From contig NZ_CP043316.1 in the NCBI RefSeq assembly GCF_008189405.1, forward strand, positions 150,001 through 182,000: a DNA stretch of 32,000 nucleotides, read 5' to 3'. The notes beneath the pieces are model-generated. The model did no database searches. It was not told the origin of the DNA and saw only the letters and a list, made by a program, of their open reading frames with translations. Shown here in pieces: positions 5,127 through 32,000 of the stretch. Numbering within the stretch: position 1 is the stretch's first letter; every line of letters begins with the position of its first letter. Origin of the DNA: Candidatus Saccharimonadota bacterium. Its GTDB lineage: Bacteria; Pseudomonadota; Alphaproteobacteria; CAJXXZ01; 1604HC. The position numbers were made by a program, and so were the translations under genes.

Positions 5127-5615
5127 TTATATTTGTAAAAATCCATTGTTGTACAATAGGCTTAGTGCATTTCGTTTAGAGCCTGATTTTAGTATGATGC
5201 TTTGCCCTGATAATCTAAGAAAATTTTGATAATCCATTAATTTAGGAGCGAATATTTCCCTATCTTCATCACTCATACGCTTCACCATTATCCATTCTTC
5301 AGCAATTTTATGCTTCTGATTTGCTTTTTTAATGGCATAGTAGATTTTTGTACGCTTACCTTCTAATGTTTTTAATAATTCATATGCATCTTTTTCATTC
5401 GTTGGTGGAGCAAAATAGTTACGCCCATAAAACATAAAACTGATAAAAAAGTTGTCAGTTTCATTAGGAAAAGCTTGCCTGATTAGCTCATATGGATTTA
5501 ATTTGCTTTTATTTGTTAATTCAGGGCTCCATGTTTGTACTGAAATAGATGCTGAGTGTTTTTTAATTTGATCGGTTAAGAAAAAATCCCAAACTGGCAT
5601 ATGTATTGTATTCAT
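5127..5615 (-). CDS. Hypothetical protein (162 aa), no recognisable family
   Basis: Intact ORF with non-repetitive, balanced composition, flanked by long AT-rich spacers. I recognise no motif and see no signal peptide. Confidence 0.4.
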   Translation of the reverse strand: MNTIHMPVWDFFLTDQIKKHSASISVQTWSPELTNKSKLNPYELIRQAFPNETDNFFISFMFYGRNYFAPPTNEKDAYELLKTLEGKRTKIYYAIKKANQKHKIAEEWIMVKRMSDEDREIFAPKLMDYQNFLRLSGQSIILKSGSKRNALSLLYNNGFLQI

Positions 5616-6292: not shown

Positions 6293-8644
6293 ATGAATAA
6301 CAAATCACGTGTTTTACTGATATGTATGGCGTGTTCAATTAATAATGTTGAATCATCTTTTGAATCAGTGTTTAAAAATAATTGGAAACCAGTTCTAGAA
6401 GAAAATTTTGATAGATATTATGCAATTAAAAGAGCATCTTTAATGTTCGAAGGTGATATTGAAGTTGTTGCTAAATTAAAGAAATCAAAAAATGTATATT
6501 TGCCATTTGCATTTATCAATAATCATTTAATTCACTTAGATAATGGATTTGATTTTGAAATTGGTGCAGAAGCAAAACAAAGGATCGCAGATTCTACAAA
6601 TCATTTGTTAATAGAAAAAGCAGCTTTTTCTAAAAATTCTGAATATGTAGTACTAGAAGGTACTGCTGCATCAGCAAGTACAAAATATAAAAATTCTCAA
6701 GTACTGAAAAAAAGAATAGATCTTGATTCCGATAGAATCATAGATCTTACAGATCAAATCATAAAATTCTTAGATGAACAAGGATTTGAAAGAAAATTGG
6801 ATACTCAAAACCAGATTGATTTAGCTGATAACCTATCAATTATTAGCACTGGTAGCAAGCCACGCTCTAGATCTGCATCTATAGCATCGCTGAATTCTGG
6901 TCATAACACACCTAAATCTCCGTCTAGTCCAACATTAAGAAGTAGAACTAGTTCTGTAGCTTCTAATGCTTCATCTCCTAAAAGAAGCGTAGTGATCAAT
7001 GATAAAAATCTTGATGTAAAAGAAATGCCAGAGATAAGCCCTACAAATTCTTCAGGAAGCGCAGCAGAGCTAATCGTACAACAATTGAGTGCACAAAGTA
7101 GTCTTACAATTGAAACTGGAGATCAAAATACCACCCCTCCATCAATTTTGAGTTCAGAAACCAGTAATGCTAATACTTTTGATGTTATATCTGGAGAAAT
7201 AAGCCCAAGAAATGCAAATCAATTAGTTAATTCTGATTCTGGAGAAAGATTGGAAAGCTCAGACTCTACAGTGCAATCTGTTGTACAACAAATGGCAGAT
7301 AGTGATCAAGATATGCACAATCTATTACAAGGTAATGGAGAAGAATCTGTATTATCAATAGGTTCAGTAACTTCAGCGGCTTCAGCAGCTTCAAATCCTA
7401 ATGCATTAAGTTCGTTGATAAGGGGTGATCAAGCAGAAAATATGGAGCGTACTAATACACAAACAAACCCACAGATTGATACTGGTTTGCAGCAAATAAT
7501 TGACCAATTAGGAGTTCAAGGTAACGATGATAGTGTTGTTGAAGCAGGAGATAGATCTCCAAAAAGTAAGATGCTTGATCATGTTTCTATGAAGCTTGAA
7601 AGAGAGCATAGTTTGAGTGAAGAAGCCTTAAATAATGATAAAAAGTCCATCAATGATATTATTAGAGAGCAAAGAGCTCAAGCGAATGCAAATGGACAAA
7701 AGATTGCAGATTTATTTAATAAGGGTAATCAAAGCATGACAATAGAATCTAAAGTAAAATCTATTATGCAAGAAATTACAAATCACTCCTCAGTTAGTGA
7801 GTCTGCTGATATATTTCAAGATACAATGAACCTTTCTGATAAGACAATCACATATATAAAAGATAATGCTAAATTATTTGCAGATAAAAAATTACTTGCA
7901 GAATTTGTAGTAGGTCAAGAAAAATCTAATACATTATCTGGTGTATTGTTTAGAGATAGTCAAATAGGTAAGGGTAGGTATGGATTAGTTCACTACAATG
8001 CAGATGGATCTACCACATTGCAAGTTAAAGTTCCAAAAAACATTGATTCTACATTTGATTCAGCATTAAAAGCAATGAGCCATTCTTTACACTCAATGCT
8101 TACAATGAAAAAAGATAATGCAATCACATATATTTTGATTCATGTGAGAAAAGATAGCAGACATCTTAATAAGTTAATAGTGAAAGATAATCATGGAAAA
8201 ACTATGAATCCATTTATTAACCCTAATTTTAAATTATTGCTTAATGCTTATGACTCACAAAATGATGGTGTGGATTTCTTGCCTTGCATGATTCACGTAA
8301 CTGAAATGACACCAAGTTTTGCTGAAATTTCAGATATGACTAAATTCATGAATGGCGAAACTATCAATAACAAAGAGTTAAAGAAATCTATAAATGTGAA
8401 AGATTCGTTAAGAGTAAAAGATGATGTAAGATCTATTTATGAGTACATTTTAAAGAAATTGCCTAAATCTTATAAGAATAGTATATTAGTGCTTTCAGAT
8501 ATTGATAATAAGTTTCATTCATACCTTAAAAATGAATTTGGAATCAATGTTGCTGGAAATGATGGTGAATACAATTTCAGAGAAGTAAATACATTGCACA
8601 TTATGCATGAAATTTTGAAAGCTTCTAAAATTTATAAAGCATAA
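6293..8644 (+). CDS. Large orphan protein (783 aa): N-terminal domain, Ser/Thr/Pro/Arg-rich disordered core, structured C-terminal domain; candidate secreted or host-targeted effector
   Basis: SD AGGAG 8 nt upstream of the ATG. Long ORF in an AT-rich genome where random ORFs are short. Low-complexity core roughly 6845-7570 (SKPRSRSASIASLNSGHNTPKSPSSPTLRSRTSSVASNASSPKRS...). The C-terminal 300 aa are non-repetitive. Weakly signal-like N-terminus MNNKSRVLLICMACSINN. Confidence 0.6.
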   Translation: MNNKSRVLLICMACSINNVESSFESVFKNNWKPVLEENFDRYYAIKRASLMFEGDIEVVAKLKKSKNVYLPFAFINNHLIHLDNGFDFEIGAEAKQRIADSTNHLLIEKAAFSKNSEYVVLEGTAASASTKYKNSQVLKKRIDLDSDRIIDLTDQIIKFLDEQGFERKLDTQNQIDLADNLSIISTGSKPRSRSASIASLNSGHNTPKSPSSPTLRSRTSSVASNASSPKRSVVINDKNLDVKEMPEISPTNSSGSAAELIVQQLSAQSSLTIETGDQNTTPPSILSSETSNANTFDVISGEISPRNANQLVNSDSGERLESSDSTVQSVVQQMADSDQDMHNLLQGNGEESVLSIGSVTSAASAASNPNALSSLIRGDQAENMERTNTQTNPQIDTGLQQIIDQLGVQGNDDSVVEAGDRSPKSKMLDHVSMKLEREHSLSEEALNNDKKSINDIIREQRAQANANGQKIADLFNKGNQSMTIESKVKSIMQEITNHSSVSESADIFQDTMNLSDKTITYIKDNAKLFADKKLLAEFVVGQEKSNTLSGVLFRDSQIGKGRYGLVHYNADGSTTLQVKVPKNIDSTFDSALKAMSHSLHSMLTMKKDNAITYILIHVRKDSRHLNKLIVKDNHGKTMNPFINPNFKLLLNAYDSQNDGVDFLPCMIHVTEMTPSFAEISDMTKFMNGETINNKELKKSINVKDSLRVKDDVRSIYEYILKKLPKSYKNSILVLSDIDNKFHSYLKNEFGINVAGNDGEYNFREVNTLHIMHEILKASKIYKA

Positions 8645-14321: not shown

Positions 14322-14996
14322 TTATTTCATTAAATTAACGGTGAATCCAACACTTGCTCCAAATTCTTTTGGTGGTGTGATCGATATTATTGCACTACCA
14401 GTTTTTAAGGAGATATTTGTATAGTATTTTATTTTTGCTTCACAAAACATACCAAATATGTCATTTTTTCTATAATGTAATCCTAAAGCTGATCCAAAAC
14501 CATTTGTCCAAATACCCTTTATATTACTATGCTTCGTGTAACCGTTATACCTTTTGAGATTTGAAAATAACTTTCCATATGCAGATAAGTTATTTTTTAT
14601 ATGAAATCTTAAAAATAACCCCATAGATAAATCTATGAATGATTTTAATTGAAACTGGCTCTTAGAAGAAGTGTTGCTAGCATCATCTGTCATGGTTAGA
14701 TCTTTATATTGGTCATGAACATCTACACCAATACATCCACCAATGTTTTTATTGGCCATTATAACACCTTCTAATGACATATGCATATTGCTCATGAATG
14801 CATCTTTATGATTTTTCATTGATATAATTGCTTTTTGTCCTAGTGCTGATACTTTCAAATCTGTAAGTCCTTGTGCTCCAACTCCTACCTTCAAATATGC
14901 ACGATCATATTTACCTGTACATGTAGCAGTATTTGTTTTGCTGTGATTAAATAATGCGCAAACCATTACTGCAATTGCTATTTTTTTATTATTCAT
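14322..14996 (-). CDS. Outer-membrane beta-barrel surface protein, paralog 2 (tandem pair member)
   Basis: Signal-like MNNKKIAIAVMVCALFNHS. Shares long collinear blocks with ORF 15239..15925 (HMSLEGVIMANKNIGG vs HLSLGSIIMATKHIGY; TNGFGSALGLHYRKN vs TNGFGAALGVHYKKN; ITPPKEFGASVGFTVNLMK vs ITPPKEFSTSIGFIVNMLK). Confidence 0.55.
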   Translation of the reverse strand: MNNKKIAIAVMVCALFNHSKTNTATCTGKYDRAYLKVGVGAQGLTDLKVSALGQKAIISMKNHKDAFMSNMHMSLEGVIMANKNIGGCIGVDVHDQYKDLTMTDDASNTSSKSQFQLKSFIDLSMGLFLRFHIKNNLSAYGKLFSNLKRYNGYTKHSNIKGIWTNGFGSALGLHYRKNDIFGMFCEAKIKYYTNISLKTGSAIISITPPKEFGASVGFTVNLMK

Positions 14997-15238: not shown

Positions 15239-15925
15239 TCAATTGTGTTTCTTAAGCATATTTACTATAAACCCTATACTTGTTGAAAACTCTTTTGGAG
15301 GTGTGATTCTACTATTTTCTTCTCTATCCCATTCTAAAGGGATAAATTTCTTCATTTGCACTTCCCAGAAGATTCCACATTTCCTATTTTTTTTGTAATG
15401 TACTCCTAAAGCAGCGCCAAACCCATTTGTGCAGAAAGCAGAATTTGATATATTATTATGATCGTATCCTTTCAACACTTTCATTTCATATTTCTTGAAT
15501 GATAAGGATAGCTTTGTATATATGAACAAGTTGTGTTTTATATTGTGCTTAAGAAACAATCCATGAGATATGCAGATAAATGATTTTAAAAATGCTATAT
15601 TAGTTGGAGTATTTTTTTGTATAATCTCTCTTTTTTGATTGTGTATATTAGATTCAATATAATATCCAATATGTTTGGTAGCCATTATAATACTTCCAAG
15701 AGAAAGATGCACATTATTGCATATTGTATTTACCCTTTTCCTCATTTGTATATGACTTTGTGGAGAATCGAAAAATTGTTTAGGATGTGTTAGTCCATAC
15801 AATCCAATTCCAAATGTGCAGCAAACTCGATCTGATAGAGAATGAGAACTGTAATCAGAATCAGAATTAATGCTATAGTAACTGAATAAATATATTATTG
15901 ATGAGATGGCTATCACATGGTTCAT
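15239..15925 (-). CDS. Outer-membrane beta-barrel surface protein, paralog 3 (tandem pair member, more divergent; possibly decaying)
   Basis: Collinear similarity to ORF 14322..14996 (see that entry). The N-terminus MNHVIAISSIIYLFSYYS is a poor signal peptide with no basic n-region. Confidence 0.45.
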   Translation of the reverse strand: MNHVIAISSIIYLFSYYSINSDSDYSSHSLSDRVCCTFGIGLYGLTHPKQFFDSPQSHIQMRKRVNTICNNVHLSLGSIIMATKHIGYYIESNIHNQKREIIQKNTPTNIAFLKSFICISHGLFLKHNIKHNLFIYTKLSLSFKKYEMKVLKGYDHNNISNSAFCTNGFGAALGVHYKKNRKCGIFWEVQMKKFIPLEWDREENSRITPPKEFSTSIGFIVNMLKKHN

Positions 15926-27663: not shown

Positions 27664-28248
27664 ATGAAATGTTCATTTAAAGCATTCAGTTTGTTAGAAA
27701 TTAGTTTCGTGCTTATTATTGCTAGTTTACTTATGTTTGGTGGTATGAAAGGAATGCAATTAGTAGAGAAAGCTCGTGTTTATAGAGCTGCATCTGAAAT
27801 GAGATTGTGTTTGACGGCTATAGAATCTTTTAAAATTGAATATGCTCAGCATCCTTGTATATCTAATAGGTTTAATGTAAATACAGTTGTTGGTAGTAGT
27901 AATGCAGGTCCCAATCAGGATCTACAAAAAGTACTTTGGAAGAATCTTCATAAATCTGGATTGATTAAAAGCAGTATAAACAGTGATAGACAATCTCCAT
28001 TGGGTGGATCTTACCATGTTCAATATAGTAAAGGATTTTTTAATATTATAGTAGGATCTGCGAATGATTTTTGTAATAAAGGAGTGTTAACAGGAAAGCA
28101 AGTGTTGTTAATGATTGAATACCTTGATCTAGATGAAGAAGAATATGAAATTGTTACTAAATTAGGAGGCAATTGCATTGTATTGCAAAGTTTATTTGCG
28201 GACTCTCAAGACAGGTACATGATTATCTTTAAAACAAAAGAACATTAA
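27664..28248 (+). CDS. Prepilin-type (type IV pilin / T2SS pseudopilin-like) protein with N-terminal cleavage/methylation motif
   Basis: MKCSFKA|FSLLEISFVLIIASLLMFGG: short basic leader, Phe at +1, Glu at +5, then a hydrophobic helix. Ala replaces the usual Gly at -1. Confidence 0.65.
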   Translation: MKCSFKAFSLLEISFVLIIASLLMFGGMKGMQLVEKARVYRAASEMRLCLTAIESFKIEYAQHPCISNRFNVNTVVGSSNAGPNQDLQKVLWKNLHKSGLIKSSINSDRQSPLGGSYHVQYSKGFFNIIVGSANDFCNKGVLTGKQVLLMIEYLDLDEEEYEIVTKLGGNCIVLQSLFADSQDRYMIIFKTKEH

Positions 28249-28473
28249 TTGAGAAGGTATTAAGGGTAAGGTTAATTTTATTATACAATGAATGTATTAG
28301 GGATGATAAAATATCAAATAATAAAACTAAAACGCAAAATAGAATTATGTGGAATGAAGTATAAAACACAAATCCCAAAGCTATTTATAAAATTAGATAC
28401 AATATTCAAATTCATTGTAATGGCTCTTAAGGTCATAAAACTCTATATTAGAAATAAAACTAAAAAGTTTTAT

Positions 28474-29814
28474 ATGCAGGGCTCCTATATTATATATATT
28501 CGAAAGCTAAAAATTATAAAATCTAAGGTTCTAAAACTAAAGTTATATGCGTTTAGTTTGGTAGAAGTTATTTTTGTGTTAATAGTATTTTCTATGTTAT
28601 CGACTGTTTTAGTTAAAACAAGCAATAGTATGATAAAAGCACACAGAGATAGGGTGACAAAAAATAATGTTGAAAAGATATATAGGGCAATAGGGCGCTT
28701 TGTTGCTATAAATGGATACCTGCCATTTCCTTATCATGGGTGTAATAAGTATATTTATGGATATGATAAAAATAGAAAGTGTGGACAAAACTGTACTCAT
28801 AGCTGTGATGATCCTTATGGTAGTTCAAGTTTTAAGTTAAGTGATATGAAAGAAATGTTAGATATTAATAAGCAAAATTCCGATAATATACCATATACAA
28901 ACCCAAGTAAATTAGGGGTAGGAATTGTGCCGTTTCTTACATTAGATTTACAAGAAAAAGATGTGAAAGATGGTAATGGTAATTATTTTACATATGCAAT
29001 GAATATTATATTAGGCCCAAGAGATGGATATATTTACTTGCCACAAGATCACCCTTGTATCAAACATAATACTGATTTAGTTGATCATGATTATTACGAA
29101 AGATATGAGCCACAATACGAAAAAAAACATGTAAATCAAATTTCTGGATTCTGTGATGTAAGATTTCATACAGATAATGTCAAGTTCTATCATATGATGC
29201 GCAATATGCTTGAACTAAGCACAAGAAATATATATAAGCGCTCTACTTTTTATCAGCATACTGGTATAGAATATAAAGCTGATTTGGCTGATTTAACATG
29301 TTGGATTAAAACAAATCTACATGTTATTAATAATCGTGGATATGATGTTTCAGAATCAATTGAAAAGATGCATTATCATATTAATATGACTATGCCTGCA
29401 GATAAGCTTTTTGATTTAGTGAAATCGTCAGATAAAGACAAGGCATACTTTAATGAAGTAGCAAAAAACATATATTATTTTGTTAGAAAGCAAGAGGATT
29501 TTCAGAAGATTTATAAGGTATGTAATACAATTGCATTTGTTTTGGTTAGTCATGGGCCTAATGGAGGATCTTTGGATAAAAGAATGAATTTTATGAAGAT
29601 TAATGATAAAGTGTCTTGCCCGCATAAAAAGGAGAATGCTACATGCTCAAATCATTTTTATCAAAGTGGAGATGTTGATAAAGGATTTGATGATCAGGTA
29701 TTTTACATATCCAAATTTTCACTTGCATCTGAATATGGTGGATTTCAGTGTAGGCCTTATGATTTGCCATTTTCTATGGAATTAATACATAATAATAAAT
29801 ATAGTTTAGCATGA
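28474..29814 (+). CDS. Very large Cys-rich prepilin-type protein (about 420 aa mature)
   Basis: ...KLKLYA|FSLVEVIFVLIVFSMLSTVLV is a second cleavage/methylation motif, with Phe+1 at 28552 and Glu+5. The ORF opens at 28288, but a class III signal peptide cannot sit 88 aa into a protein. The ATG at 28474 gives a 26-aa leader. At least 16 Cys in the globular part. VLVSHGPNGGS is faintly reminiscent of the GspG C-terminal S-x-G-x-DG motif. The stop overlaps the tadA start (ATGA). Confidence 0.55.
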   Translation: MQGSYIIYIRKLKIIKSKVLKLKLYAFSLVEVIFVLIVFSMLSTVLVKTSNSMIKAHRDRVTKNNVEKIYRAIGRFVAINGYLPFPYHGCNKYIYGYDKNRKCGQNCTHSCDDPYGSSSFKLSDMKEMLDINKQNSDNIPYTNPSKLGVGIVPFLTLDLQEKDVKDGNGNYFTYAMNIILGPRDGYIYLPQDHPCIKHNTDLVDHDYYERYEPQYEKKHVNQISGFCDVRFHTDNVKFYHMMRNMLELSTRNIYKRSTFYQHTGIEYKADLADLTCWIKTNLHVINNRGYDVSESIEKMHYHINMTMPADKLFDLVKSSDKDKAYFNEVAKNIYYFVRKQEDFQKIYKVCNTIAFVLVSHGPNGGSLDKRMNFMKINDKVSCPHKKENATCSNHFYQSGDVDKGFDDQVFYISKFSLASEYGGFQCRPYDLPFSMELIHNNKYSLA

Positions 29815-30242
29815 ATAATTATAGATATTTTATGAATATGGCCCTAAATATTGCTAAGCTAAGCTCTGATGAAGTGCCAGTTGGATGTGTAATTGTGCAT
29901 AATGAAGATATTATTGCTGAGAGTTGTAATAAGGTTGAAATATTACAGAACCCATTACTGCATGCAGAGATGATAGCAATTAATCAAGCACTAAAAGTTT
30001 TGAATAGTAAATTCTTAGAAAAATGTATACTGTTTTGCACTTTAGAACCTTGTAGAATGTGCATGGCAGCAATTCAATTAGTGCGGATGAAGCAAGTTGT
30101 ATTTGGAGCTTACAATGGAGCTTATAACAATGTATTTCATGATAAAGCTAATAAGACTGATAATAATATAGAAATTATAGGTGGGGTTTGTGAAACTGAA
30201 TGTTCAAGTATATTGCATTCTTTCTTTAAATCTAAGCGGTAA
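29811..30242 (+). CDS. tadA: tRNA-specific adenosine deaminase
   Basis: CDA zinc motifs HAEMIAINQA and TLEPCRMCMAAI. Size (143 aa) and VPVGCVIV block are typical of TadA. Confidence 0.9.
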   Translation: MNNYRYFMNMALNIAKLSSDEVPVGCVIVHNEDIIAESCNKVEILQNPLLHAEMIAINQALKVLNSKFLEKCILFCTLEPCRMCMAAIQLVRMKQVVFGAYNGAYNNVFHDKANKTDNNIEIIGGVCETECSSILHSFFKSKR

Positions 30243-30404
30243 AAAATAACAACTAATCTAAAATATATATAAGTAAAAATTCAATAATATTTGTAAGATT
30301 TTTAATTATTATTATAAAATTATTGTTTTTTATTGTTTTTTGCATAATATTTTGACGAAAACTTAAGTATATTGATCTTAAATAGAATCAAGAGAGGTTT
30401 GCAA

Positions 30405-32000
30405 ATGGGAGAAAGTATACAAAAATCACTATTAAGAGTTAGACCTCCTCGTGTACGTATAACTTACGATGTAGAAACAGGCGGAGCAGTTCAGAAAAAA
30501 GAACTTCCTTTTGTCTTGGGTATCATTTCTGATTTATATGGTCATCAAGAGGAGCGTGTGGACTTTAAAGATAGAAGATTCACTGTCATAGACAGAGATA
30601 ACTTCGAGCACGTTATGGAGTCAATTAATCCAAAATTGAATCTTTCAGTTAATAATGTGTTAGAAGCAAGTAAGGATGATAAGAAAAAGAAAGCTGAAGG
30701 TTCTAATATCGGCTTAGAATTATTTTTCAATACTATGGATGATTTTAATCCAGTTAATATTGTGAGAAAAGTTCCTGAATTAAATGCATTTCTTGAAGAT
30801 CATGAGTTATTAGTAGATTTAGCAACTAAATTAGATTCTAATAATGATTTGAATGATATGTTAGGTAAGGCAATAGCTGATAAAGGAATTGCATCTAAAA
30901 TTGTATCAGAGTCTAAAGATGTTACAAAAGCATCAGCAGAAATGGATAAGATCATTAAGGATAGTGGATTGTTTGTTCCAGATCCTGAAGATAAAGATTC
31001 AACTGAAATTGTAAAATATAGAAAAATGATTGCATCATTATTTAGAAATATGACAGCAGAAACAACAGAAGTTGCGCATCTATATCCATATATGATGGAT
31101 ATGATTGCTAAGATTGATGAGAAGATTTCTTTGCAATTGGATGAAGTGTTGCATCATGAAGATTTCCAAACATTAGAAGCATCCTGGAGAGGAATGCATT
31201 ACGTTGTAATGAATTCAGAAACAGGTACAAGTCTAAAAATCAGAATATTTGCTGCTACTAAAGATGAAGTACAACAAGATCTGGAACGTGCAATAGAGTT
31301 TGACCAAAGCGTATTATTTAGAAGAATTTATGAAGAAGAGTTTGGTACTCTAGGTGGTTCTCCATATTCTTGTTTATTAGGAGATTTCTACATTGGTAAA
31401 AAACCAACAGATGTTTCATTGATTAGAAAAATCAGTCAAGTAGCAGCTGCAGCACATACACCATTTTTGGCTGCTGCAAATCCTAATCTATTTGATTTGA
31501 ATTCTTATAATGAGTTGCATGTCCCAAGAGATTTAAAGAAAATATTTGAAAACTCAGAATTGACTGCATGGAATAGTTTCCGTGATATGGAAGATTCAAG
31601 ATATGTAAACTTATTCTTGCCAAGAGTATTGGTAAGATTACCATATGGTGAAGATACAATTCCAGTAAAGGGTTTCAACTATAATGAAGCTGTAGATGGA
31701 ATGGATAACTCAAAATTCTGTTGGGGTAACCCTGCATATGCAATGGCATTAAGAATCACAACTGCCTTTGCACAATATGGATGGACCGCAGCAATTAGAG
31801 GTATAGAAGGTGGTGGACTTGTTGAAAATCTACCAGCTTATACTTTTAAAACATCTTATGGTGATATTGCATTGAAGTGTCCAACTGAGGTTATGATTAC
31901 TGATAGGCGTGAAAAAGAGTTGAGTGATCTTGGATTTATATCTTTATGTCATAATAAAGGTACAGATAAAGCTGTTTTCTTTAGTGCACAAAGTACACAA
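30405..32000 (+). CDS. tssBC: Type VI secretion contractile sheath: TssB(VipA)-like residues 1 to about 179 and TssC(VipB)-like residues about 180 to 532+ in one uninterrupted ORF (3' partial, continues past the window)
   Basis: I translated it codon by codon from the ATG at 30405 (SD AGAGAGG at 30391-30397) to the end of the window and found no stop codon. TssB signature: LLRVRPPRVRITYDVETGGAVQKKELPFVLGIISDLYGH...FTVIDRDNFEHVM. TssC signatures: QLDEVLHHEDFQTLEASWRGMHYVV, EFDQSVLFRRIYEEEFGTLGGSPYSCLLGDF, AAAAHTPFLAAANP, DSRYVNLFLPRVLVRLPYG, WGNPAYAMALRITTAFAQYGWTAAIRGIEGGG, CPTEVMITDRREKELSDLGFISL. Confidence 0.85.
   Translation, partial: MGESIQKSLLRVRPPRVRITYDVETGGAVQKKELPFVLGIISDLYGHQEERVDFKDRRFTVIDRDNFEHVMESINPKLNLSVNNVLEASKDDKKKKAEGSNIGLELFFNTMDDFNPVNIVRKVPELNAFLEDHELLVDLATKLDSNNDLNDMLGKAIADKGIASKIVSESKDVTKASAEMDKIIKDSGLFVPDPEDKDSTEIVKYRKMIASLFRNMTAETTEVAHLYPYMMDMIAKIDEKISLQLDEVLHHEDFQTLEASWRGMHYVVMNSETGTSLKIRIFAATKDEVQQDLERAIEFDQSVLFRRIYEEEFGTLGGSPYSCLLGDFYIGKKPTDVSLIRKISQVAAAAHTPFLAAANPNLFDLNSYNELHVPRDLKKIFENSELTAWNSFRDMEDSRYVNLFLPRVLVRLPYGEDTIPVKGFNYNEAVDGMDNSKFCWGNPAYAMALRITTAFAQYGWTAAIRGIEGGGLVENLPAYTFKTSYGDIALKCPTEVMITDRREKELSDLGFISLCHNKGTDKAVFFSAQSTQ

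What the first reader, a model, noticed from the sequence alone, without database searches (positions are those of the whole stretch)
30405..32000. T6SS sheath subunits TssB and TssC encoded as a single continuous ORF (absent from the supplied ORF track)
Hand translation from ATG 30405 gives a canonical TssB/VipA N-terminus (RPPRVRITYDVETGG...ELPFVLGIISDL...IDRDNF). With no intervening stop or frameshift, it runs straight into a canonical TssC/VipB sequence. The FQ.LEASWRG block starts near residue 244. That is about where it would fall if a full TssB of roughly 170-180 aa were fused to a full TssC. The likely ancestral TssC start (MDKIIKDSGL, ATG at 30942, residue 180) is in frame and has no SD-like sequence in front of it. 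That argues for a true fusion rather than two coupled genes. In all characterised systems I know (VipA/VipB, TssB1/TssC1, IglA/IglB) these are two polypeptides. Phage and pyocin sheaths, by contrast, are single chains equivalent to TssB plus TssC, so a covalent fusion is structurally plausible. It would also bury the TssC N-terminal helix that ClpV normally recognises, raising the question of how this sheath is recycled. A canonical T6SS in such a reduced, AT-rich genome is notable in itself. The locus is cut by the window edge.
Basis: partly seen in the sequence, partly recalled or inferred. Interest (0 to 1): 0.85.

Follow-up and report, generated by a model that had tools for sequence, protein, structure and literature searches.

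The report
Fused TssB–TssC T6SS sheath gene

Summary
From ATG 30405 one stop-free frame runs to the window end and carries a complete TssB/VipA module followed by TssC/VipB. The window comes from Ca. Cytomitobacter primus. The full protein is 656 aa and identical in two independent assemblies.

The fusion is not an error. It is conserved at 46–78% identity in other Cytomitobacter-like genomes, Nesciobacter, NHP-B, 'Caedibacter' and many Holosporaceae MAGs, and I confirmed a stop-free frame at DNA level in 22 loci.

It is not unique. Of the 150 best representatives (50%-identity clusters) among 1.84 billion proteins, 121 carry both modules. Fusion arose at least three times, including a recent one in a Pseudomonas aeruginosa cluster.

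The join is end to end (TssB ~1–165, TssC ~166–656). Met180 is not an ancestral start; it lies inside the retained ClpV-binding-type helix of TssC. AlphaFold2 models the junction confidently as continuous helices.

The published gene list for C. primus has no clpV, so how the sheath is recycled remains open. I found no paper that mentions the fusion.

Bonus: the unannotated ORF just downstream is a divergent Hcp, the tube protein reported as missing in this group.

Verdict: real, a new variant of a known kind, moderate interest.

The parts
30391..30397 (+). Shine-Dalgarno-like AGAGAGG, 7 nt upstream of the start codon of the fused gene
   Evidence: Read directly from the sequence. The promoter scan of the upstream spacer was no better than shuffled sequence.
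30405..30899 (+). TssB/VipA module (about residues 1-165) of the fused sheath gene, including the conserved N-terminal RVRPPRV.ITYDVE segment
   Evidence: PF05591 at residues 11-169, E 8.9e-43. TIGR03358 at 7-171, 147 bits. PDB TssB chains 9n4v_B (E 3.6e-37) and 4uqz_B match. Foldseek hits TssB chain 5n8n_A with target-normalised TM 0.73.
30666..30704 (+). Lys-rich variable loop inside TssB (about residues 88-100); its length varies among relatives
   Evidence: Conservation 0.09 and 65% gaps in the 120-sequence alignment. Large insertions here in P0005, P0047 and P0084. pLDDT 59.
30900..31001 (+). Junction (about residues 166-199): former TssB tail and TssC leader, the retained ClpV-binding-type helix, and an indel-rich loop (188-199)
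   Evidence: TssC residue 1 maps to about residue 166, because query 228 aligns with chain residue 63 of 9n4v_A. AF2 secondary structure gives helix 160-169, loop, helix 178-187, loop 188-199. Gaps are frequent at 191-200.
30936..30965 (+). Helix 178-187 (AEMDKIIKDS), equivalent to the N-terminal ClpV-binding helix of free-standing TssC. It contains ATG 30942 (Met180), which is not a conserved start.
   Evidence: It aligns with the (L)LDxII motif of unfused TssC N-termini and with the EAEC TssC2 peptide 15-29, ATDDCLEEIINNTRA (PMC5048182). Met180 is replaced by I, L or T in six of eight relatives aligned. No SD-like motif upstream.
30900..32000 (+). TssC/VipB module (about residues 166-532 within the window). 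The gene continues 372 nt beyond the window to residue 656 plus the stop.
   Evidence: PF05943 at residues 232-532, E 1.4e-128. TIGR03355, 464 bits. The full-length P0001 also carries PF18945. PDB TssC chains 9n4v_A (E 5.9e-180) and 5n8n_B (E 2.5e-142) match.

Best explanation
The window ends inside a genuine single gene, tssBC, of Candidatus Cytomitobacter primus. It encodes a 656-aa single-chain T6SS sheath protomer: TssB (about residues 1-165) joined end to end to TssC (about 166-656). It most likely arose when the tssB stop codon and the short spacer before tssC were lost, with trimming of the TssB tail and the TssC leader. The join falls in the surface-exposed helical region where the TssB C-terminal helices and TssC N-terminal helices already pack together, so the fused chain should fold and polymerise like a VipA/VipB heterodimer. 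It would assemble around an Hcp tube and contract, with 1:1 stoichiometry fixed by the fusion. Shown here: the open frame, both modules, conservation of the fusion across a deep endosymbiont clade, and a confident fold through the junction. Inferred: that one polypeptide is made, that it forms a contractile sheath, and how or whether that sheath is recycled. Recycling may involve ClpB, or there may be none, because no clpV is listed for this genome even though the ClpV-binding-type helix is retained.
For: The frame is continuous and both family models score above their curated cutoffs. The 656-aa protein is identical in two assemblies. The fusion is conserved at 46-78% identity in Cytomitobacter-like genomes, Nesciobacter, NHP-B, Holosporaceae and 'Caedibacter' MAGs, and a stop-free frame was verified under table 11 in 22 loci. 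There are 93 invariant columns spread over both modules among 76 fused proteins, which argues for purifying selection on both halves. No internal Met is conserved and there is no SD before ATG 30942. The AF2 model has mean pLDDT 82.4 and pTM 0.76, with pLDDT above 90 over residues 101-190. It is low only at 1-3, 15-30, 462-468 and 639-656. From general knowledge of sheath structures, segments 15-30 and 639-656 correspond to the strands that order only between protomers. Foldseek matches both TssC chains (E 1.9e-37 to 5.7e-26) and TssB chains of solved sheaths. Other T6SS genes are present: TssF and TssG lie 3.4-6.2 kb downstream, a divergent Hcp lies directly downstream, and tssA, E, F, G, K, L, M, vgrG and PAAR are listed in George et al. 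Table S3.
Against: There is no protein-level evidence that a single product of about 74 kDa is made. Proteolytic cleavage in the variable loop 188-199, or non-canonical internal initiation, cannot be excluded. No experiment shows that any natural fused sheath contracts. No clpV/tssH is listed for C. primus, and I could not scan the whole genome myself. The tree indicating several origins is neighbour-joining without bootstrap. Unfused lineages sit inside the endosymbiont clade, so the direction of change (fusion or fission) is unresolved.
Confidence: 0.8

Rival explanations
1. Sequencing or assembly artefact: a missed stop codon or indel falsely joins two ordinary genes, tssB and tssC.
For: In unfused relatives only a stop and a 6-60 nt spacer separate the genes, so a single error could mimic a fusion. 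AT-rich, low-coverage symbiont assemblies do contain frameshifts; for example, the neighbours of tssBC in L002 are split.
Against: Two independent assemblies give the identical 656-aa protein, including the error-prone L002 contig. The same fusion occurs in dozens of divergent lineages with different junction sequences. The junction holds no relic of a stop, SD and ATG, unlike the P. aeruginosa case.
Confidence: 0.02
2. One ORF but two proteins: the fused precursor is cleaved, or TssC is also made from an internal start, so the working sheath is still a TssB/TssC heterodimer.
For: Loop 188-199 is variable, indel-rich and less confidently modelled, with pLDDT about 75. It could in principle be a processing site.
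Against: Neither an internal Met nor an SD is conserved. Cutting at 188-199 would leave the TssC N-terminal helix on the TssB fragment, which is not the canonical division. The true TssB/TssC boundary (about 166-177) is short and confidently modelled. No + strand promoter-like site was found between 30405 and 30942 (weak evidence).
Confidence: 0.1
3. Decaying relic: the T6SS of this 0.6-Mb genome is being lost and the fusion is a neutral or harmful step towards a pseudogene.
For: The genome is highly reduced. The T6SS genes are dispersed. clpV and tssJ are not listed, and Hcp was reported missing. In P. aeruginosa the fusion is a strain-level frameshift of unknown consequence.
Against: Both modules stay strongly conserved across the clade, with 93 invariant columns and TssC cores 54-65% identical to the query in the fused loci, including the P. 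aeruginosa one. The reportedly missing Hcp is in fact present directly downstream. The review PMC11909080 notes that the T6SS is retained in almost all sequenced Holosporales genomes, including the smallest.
Confidence: 0.06

Closest known systems
Two-chain T6SS sheaths with solved structures: Azotobacter vinelandii TssB/TssC (PDB 9n4v), P. aeruginosa TssB1/TssC1 (5n8n), V. cholerae VipA/VipB (3j9g, 5mxn), M. xanthus (5urw/5urx), Francisella IglA/IglB (3j9o)
   Same: Both modules are present at full length and in the same order. TssC sequence matches reach E 5.9e-180, with Foldseek alignment identity to the solved TssC chains of 29-55%. The fold matches both chains. The conserved N-terminal TssB and C-terminal TssC segments and the ClpV-binding-type helix are retained.
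   Different: One polypeptide instead of two. The TssB C-terminal tail is shorter: 9n4v_B is 187 aa, but only about 165 residues precede the TssC part here. The gene is not embedded in a full T6SS cluster, and no clpV lies nearby or is listed for the genome.
Fused TssBC of other Holosporales-type endosymbionts (Ca. Nesciobacter abundans, Cytomitobacter-like genomes, bacterium NHP-B, 'Caedibacter' sp. 37-49 and 38-128, Holosporaceae MAGs)
   Same: Same architecture, the same end-to-end junction with a DKII-type helix, and the same downstream divergent-Hcp gene.
   Different: Only the lengths of the Lys/Ala-rich loop in TssB and of the post-helix loop differ, giving 640-760 aa overall. These proteins are annotated only as 'contractile sheath large subunit'.
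P. aeruginosa PA99-type fused sheath protein (683 aa), in a cluster whose gene order matches H3-T6SS (the H3 assignment is from memory)
   Same: TssB and TssC form one ORF, 49% identical to the query.
   Different: This fusion is recent and independent. The DNA still shows an out-of-frame TGA, a GGAG SD and the tssC ATG inside the linker. It nests among unfused Pseudomonas species and sits in a complete cluster with hcp, tssE, tssF, tssG and clpV.
Single-chain contractile sheaths of phages, pyocins and extracellular or cytoplasmic CIS (T4 gp18, R-pyocin 3j9q, PVC 9qgl, Streptomyces CIS 9gtp/8bky)
   Same: One polypeptide per sheath protomer, with a distantly related core fold (Foldseek E 1e-4 to 3e-2).
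   Different: Only remote similarity: query-normalised TM about 0.2, 9-13% identity. The single chain here is a secondary fusion of T6SS-type TssB and TssC, not an ancestral phage-like sheath.

Membership tests
TssB/VipA, T6SS sheath small subunit (PF05591, TIGR03358) | Score above the curated HMM cutoff over essentially the whole model | tested here: met
   TIGR03358 scores 147.3 bits against a cutoff of 97.25, covering model positions 2-158 of 160. PF05591 scores 146.2 bits against a cutoff of 24.
TssC/VipB, T6SS sheath large subunit (PF05943 + PF18945, TIGR03355) | Score above the curated HMM cutoff, with both the N-terminal and the gpW/gp25-like C-terminal domains | tested here: met
   TIGR03355 scores 464 bits against a cutoff of 271.5 on the truncated window ORF. 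PF05943 matches model positions 2-301 of 301. The full-length P0001 also carries PF18945.
Canonical T6SS sheath (VipA/VipB type) | The protomer is a heterodimer of two separately encoded polypeptides | tested here: not met
   A single stop-free frame, with no conserved internal start. Whether one protein is actually made was not testable here.
Canonical T6SS sheath (VipA/VipB type) | Conserved terminal segments (TssB N-terminus, TssC C-terminus) that link protomers in the polymer | tested here: met
   RVRPPRV.ITYDVE and PHFQLEEL.VS.RLVA are invariant or nearly so in 76 fused proteins. They are the low-pLDDT segments of the monomer model, as expected for strands that order only in the polymer. 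That last point is inference from published sheath structures.
Canonical T6SS sheath (VipA/VipB type) | An N-terminal TssC helix recognised by a cognate ClpV ATPase | tested here: inconclusive
   The helix motif is retained internally at residues 178-187. However, no tssH/clpV is listed for C. primus in George et al. Table S3, and none lies within 10 kb. The whole genome could not be scanned with these tools.
Type VI secretion system (functional machine) | Presence of the partner core genes: tube Hcp, baseplate TssE/F/G/K, membrane complex TssL/M, and the VgrG/PAAR spike | tested here: inconclusive
   TssF and TssG lie 3.4-6.2 kb downstream. A divergent Hcp lies directly downstream (hhalign probability 97.6%; PDB Hcp hits). 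The other genes are taken only from the published list. TssJ and ClpV are not listed there.
Single-chain phage, pyocin or CIS sheath proteins | Close sequence or fold relationship to gp18, Cis2 or PVC sheath families | tested here: not met
   Only remote Foldseek matches: E 1e-4 to 3e-2, query-normalised TM about 0.2, 9-13% identity. No sequence hit to these chains in the PDB search.

The most novel reading that the evidence does not exclude
The fused single-chain sheath is one hallmark of a distinct endosymbiont T6SS type found in Holosporales and their relatives. The other hallmarks are dispersed genes, a highly divergent Hcp, no TssJ, and often no ClpV. In this type the fusion would be adaptive: it could guarantee 1:1 subunit supply from one promoter in a reduced genome, and/or go with a different recycling regime, either ClpB-dependent or single-use. 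Naturally fused sheaths would then be a tractable model for how covalent linkage in the recycling domain affects contraction and disassembly.
Probability: 0.25. Interest if true: 0.6.

Novelty: new variant of a known kind. Interest (0 to 1): 0.4.

Why it matters
Every T6SS sheath with a solved structure found here is a TssB/TssC heterodimer, and reviews treat two chains as the rule. Natural single-chain versions are in fact abundant. They show that the split is not mechanistically required and that the TssB C-terminus and TssC N-terminus can be tethered. This gives ready-made constructs for structural and engineering work.

The fusion also raises a testable question about recycling. The ClpV-docking helix is internal, and in at least some of these genomes no clpV is listed.

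For annotation, these proteins are named only 'large subunit', so gene-presence tables list tssB and tssC without noting that they are one gene. The same locus also shows that the 'missing inner tube' of Holosporales T6SS is probably a divergent Hcp that profile libraries fail to detect. That weakens the published idea of a tube-less, modified T6SS.

Tried and rejected
1. In-frame, single-stop idea. All 64 unfused loci from the genome scan had tssB and tssC in the same frame, many separated by a single stop. That hinted at conserved phasing or programmed read-through. An unbiased sample of five loci, chosen by TssB similarity alone, gave tssC offsets of 635, 496, 578, 579 and 534 nt, so only 2 of 5 are in frame, which is chance level. 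The earlier pattern is a tblastn ranking artefact. Rejected.

2. TssB-only homology search. It returned only free-standing TssBs and not even the query's own protein, because of the word-index candidate step. It says nothing about how common fusion is. I used the hits only as an unfused comparison set.

3. NJ tree of the TssB module. With 142 columns it is too weak; I replaced it with a TssC tree, which itself has no bootstrap.

4. The search for related loci with a 20-sequence alignment failed for lack of a conserved stretch. I reran it with 9 sequences.

5. Structure of the Hcp candidate. The permitted 3-sequence alignment gave pLDDT 31, which is unusable.

6. The promoter and terminator scan around the gene found 10 sites against 9.6 expected in shuffles. 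Uninformative.

7. Six literature searches for any description of a TssB–TssC fusion found nothing relevant (passages read). The library covers open-access papers only.

8. The upstream window ORFs 27664-28248 and 28288-29814 are not T6SS parts. They show only faint pseudopilin-like matches, and 29811-30242 is TadA.

9. The listing of cluster members gave almost no organism names for the distant fused representatives.
Full report
**1. What is in the window**

Translating 30405-32000 on the + strand gives 532 codons with no stop.
- Pfam places T6SS_VipA (PF05591) at residues 11-169 (E 8.9e-43) and VipB (PF05943) at residues 232-532 (E 1.4e-128).
- NCBIfam places the TssB equivalog TIGR03358 at 7-171 (model positions 2-158 of 160) and the TssC equivalog TIGR03355 at 198-532 (model positions 17-352 of 473). 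Both score well above their curated cutoffs.
- An SD-like AGAGAGG lies 7 nt before ATG 30405. Nothing SD-like precedes the in-frame ATG 30942, which is codon 180.
- The window is about 30% GC, so an open frame this long cannot be chance.
- The ORF is absent from an ORF list only because it runs off the window end (and the tool description).

One detail of the finding is off: FQTLEASWRG starts at residue 254, not about 244.

**2. Source and published context**

The best database hit is 100% identical. It is 656 aa and comes from Candidatus Cytomitobacter primus, where it is named 'type VI secretion system contractile sheath large subunit'. The same protein is encoded on a 622-kb NCBI chromosome and on an independent ENA contig. 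The ENA contig has frameshifted neighbours but an intact tssBC.

The rest of the window carries housekeeping genes (SerRS, NusA, RadA-like, Lgt, PepA, Ppx, TadA) and transporters. This fits a reduced endosymbiont chromosome.

The T6SS of this organism is already published as a 'modified' system (bioRxiv 10.1101/719211; review PMC11909080). Table S3 of that paper lists tssABCEFGIKLM, vgrG and PAAR for C. primus, with tssB and tssC listed like any other genes and no tssH/clpV. The passages I could read do not mention the fusion.

**3. Is the fusion real and conserved?**

Yes. All 120 best hits (640-760 aa, plus two truncated ones) carry PF05591 and PF05943, and 118 also carry PF18945. They include other Cytomitobacter-like genomes (74-75% identity), Ca. 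Nesciobacter abundans (63%), bacterium NHP-B, and Holosporaceae and Alphaproteobacteria MAGs.

I translated the DNA of every fetched locus under table 11. One stop-free frame spans both modules in 22 loci (L001-L011, L017, L021, L023, L028, L031, L040, L044, L053, L055, L061, L062).

Among 76 fused proteins, 93 columns are invariant, and they are spread over both modules. That argues for selection on both halves.

The residue aligned with Met180 is M, I, I, L, T, T, L, M and T in nine representatives. No internal start is conserved.

**4. How common is it?**

An exhaustive HMMER search of 1.84 billion representatives (50%-identity clusters) found 2240 proteins at E ≤ 1e-30. Re-scanning the top 150 with the two halves of the query shows 121 with both modules and 29 with TssC only. 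The ranking favours fused proteins, because the query contains both modules, so this is not a frequency. It does show well over a hundred deeply divergent fused lineages (36-70% identity).

Among 80 species-representative genomes from GTDB, 16 are fused:
- Holosporales, Holosporaceae, 'Caedibacter' and alphaproteobacterial MAGs
- a 'Thiotrichales' MAG
- a Pseudomonadota MAG
- a rumen proteobacterium MAG
- the isolate Thalassomonas sp. RHCl1

An NJ tree of the TssC part (420 columns, no bootstrap) shows:
- one large endosymbiont clade that mixes fused lineages with unfused sub-clades (for example Paracaedibacteraceae L027 and Holosporales MAG L065)
- a separate fused pair, L040 and Thalassomonas
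- fused P. aeruginosa PA99 nested among unfused Pseudomonas species

So fusion arose at least three times.

The P. aeruginosa case is instructive. The 683-aa protein occurs on at least 24 contigs, in a complete cluster containing a sigma-54 activator, tssA, tssM, tssL, tssK, tssBC, hcp, tssE, tssF, tssG and clpV. The H3-T6SS assignment is from my memory of that gene order. Its linker DNA still contains an out-of-frame TGA, a GGAG SD and the tssC ATG. It is therefore a recent frameshift fusion.

**5. Anatomy of the junction**

In unfused relatives TssB ends in a low-complexity tail, followed by a stop, a 6-60 nt spacer containing the SD, and the TssC ATG. TssC then begins with 10-25 variable residues before a conserved (L)LDxII..G+M motif.

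That motif corresponds to the N-terminal TssC helix that docks into the ClpV N-domain. For EAEC TssC2 the peptide is residues 15-29, ATDDCLEEIINNTRA (PMC5048182).

In C. primus the motif is AEMDKIIKDSGLF (about residues 178-190). Met180 therefore sits inside that helix and is not an ancestral start.

Mapping against A. vinelandii TssC (query residue 228 aligns with chain residue 63 of 9n4v_A) puts TssC residue 1 at about residue 166. TssB of the same structure aligns to residues 1-160.

The fusion is thus end to end with essentially no added linker: about 165 + about 491 = 656 aa. The tail and the leader have been trimmed.

The conservation profile agrees. It is high in TssB (1-80, 101-150), low at 151-180, moderate over the DKII helix, indel-rich at 191-200, and high from about 240 onward.

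**6. Structure**

AlphaFold2 with the 76-sequence alignment gives mean pLDDT 82.4 and pTM 0.76. Residues 101-190 have pLDDT above 90. They form helices 124-145, 147-158, 160-169 and 178-187, then a loop (188-199, pLDDT about 75), then helices 200-214, 226-249 and 252-270.

The low-confidence segments are 1-3, 15-30, 462-468 and 639-656. From what is known of sheath structures (my knowledge, not tested here), 15-30 and 639-656 correspond to strands that become ordered only between protomers.

Foldseek against the PDB matches:
- TssC chains of P. aeruginosa, A. vinelandii, M. xanthus, V. cholerae and Francisella (E 1.9e-37 to 5.7e-26)
- TssB chains (5n8n_A E 2.4e-5, target-normalised TM 0.73)
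- single-chain phage, pyocin, PVC and CIS sheaths only remotely (E 1e-4 to 3e-2, 9-13% identity)

The protein is therefore a T6SS-type sheath that became single-chain secondarily. It is not a phage-like sheath.

**7. Genomic context and function**

In free-living bacteria with unfused genes, the pair sits in the canonical cluster of tssB, tssC, hcp, tssE, tssF, tssG and clpV.

In the endosymbiont-type loci, whether fused or not, P. aeruginosa probes find almost none of these genes within 6-10 kb. In C. primus, TssG and TssF lie 3.4-6.2 kb downstream, beyond a DNA ligase gene. The system is dispersed.

A sheath needs a tube, and the literature says Hcp is missing. However, an unannotated ORF of 181-204 aa follows the sheath gene directly in C. 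primus (L001:11982-12527, starting 11 nt after the tssBC stop), NHP-B, 'Caedibacter', Paracaedibacteraceae and many MAGs.
- An 18-sequence alignment of this family matches an Hcp alignment with hhalign probability 97.6% and E 3.4e-12 over 153 columns.
- Its profile hits PDB Hcp chains over nearly their full length: 3v4h E 1.4e-6, 9qpe E 3.9e-5, 5xhh/5xeu E about 9e-3.

This supports a working sheath-tube machine, and it suggests the 'missing tube' is a detection failure.

**8. Mechanism and what remains open**

The best-supported reading is a single-chain sheath protomer that assembles and contracts like VipA/VipB. Stoichiometry is fixed by the fusion, which is tolerated because the join lies where the two chains' termini already meet.

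Recycling is the open point. The docking helix is retained, though now internal, and the published gene list has no clpV for C. primus. ClpB-mediated disassembly, or none at all, are both possible; this is inference. I could not scan the whole genome for clpV or clpB with the tools available.

**9. Verdict**

The interpretation as a true fusion is supported.

I found no paper that describes natural TssB–TssC fusions, although the search covers open-access text only. I therefore rate it a new variant of a known kind that is hiding in plain sight in the databases, with moderate interest (0.4).

Noticed in passing
L001:11982-12527 (+), starting 11 nt after the tssBC stop and about 380 nt beyond the window end. 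Equivalents: L005:4445-5017, L006:12038-12610, L008:3279-3860, L055:7951-8532 and others.: A conserved unannotated family of 181-204 aa proteins lies directly downstream of the sheath gene in Holosporales-type loci. It is a divergent Hcp/TssD: hhalign against an Hcp alignment gives probability 97.6% and E 3.4e-12 over 153 columns, and its profile hits PDB Hcp chains 3v4h (E 1.4e-6) and 9qpe (E 3.9e-5). Published work states that the inner tube is missing in these bacteria.
   Followed up: yes
L003:10500-10570 (P. aeruginosa PA99, CP042967.1) and L004: Some P. aeruginosa strains (at least 24 contigs) carry a 683-aa fused TssB-TssC in a complete cluster whose gene order matches H3-T6SS (that assignment is from memory). 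The linker still contains an out-of-frame TGA, a GGAG SD and the tssC ATG, so this is a recent frameshift fusion. Related Pseudomonas species are unfused. Whether the cluster still works in these strains is unknown.
   Followed up: partly
Proteins P0249, P0281, P0295, P0300, P0304, P0308, P0329, P0337, P0365, P0376, P0383 and others (metagenomic representatives): Thirty-eight of the 121 fused representatives have an extra N-terminal extension of about 290 to more than 800 aa before the TssB module, with no Pfam hit at E ≤ 1e-4 (checked for three of them: P0249, P0281, P0295). P0249 and P0281 share a conserved N-terminal region by eye, so at least that part looks like a real domain rather than a mis-called start. 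P0285 (2151 aa, containing TPR repeats, a kinase domain and a TssK fragment) looks like merged genes.
   Followed up: partly
Loci L012-L086 compared with L087-L091: All 64 unfused loci returned by the genome scan had tssB and tssC in the same frame, many with only one stop codon between them. An unbiased sample showed only 2 of 5 in frame. The pattern is a tblastn ranking artefact, not biology. This is worth knowing when using that tool.
   Followed up: yes
window 27664-28248 (+) and 28288-29814 (+): Two ORFs (194 and 508 aa) just upstream of tadA and tssBC have no Pfam family. They show only faint N-terminal similarity to pseudopilins or minor pilins (GspG E 0.0095, ComGE E 0.0078). They may be remnants of the reduced T2SS/T4P reported for this organism.
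   Followed up: partly
window 6293-8644 (+), 783 aa; also 207-1082, 5127-5615, 14322-14996 and 15239-15925: Several sizeable ORFs have no Pfam hit, and the 783-aa one has no NCBIfam hit either. In a 0.6-Mb endosymbiont genome these could be candidate effectors or lineage-specific proteins.
   Followed up: no
L002 (ENA contig ctg123403, 9840 bp): In this independent low-coverage assembly of the same locus, the tadA-like gene is split into 57 + 90 aa and the Hcp-like ORF into 149 + 48 aa, while tssBC is intact. These are probably assembly frameshifts.
   Followed up: no
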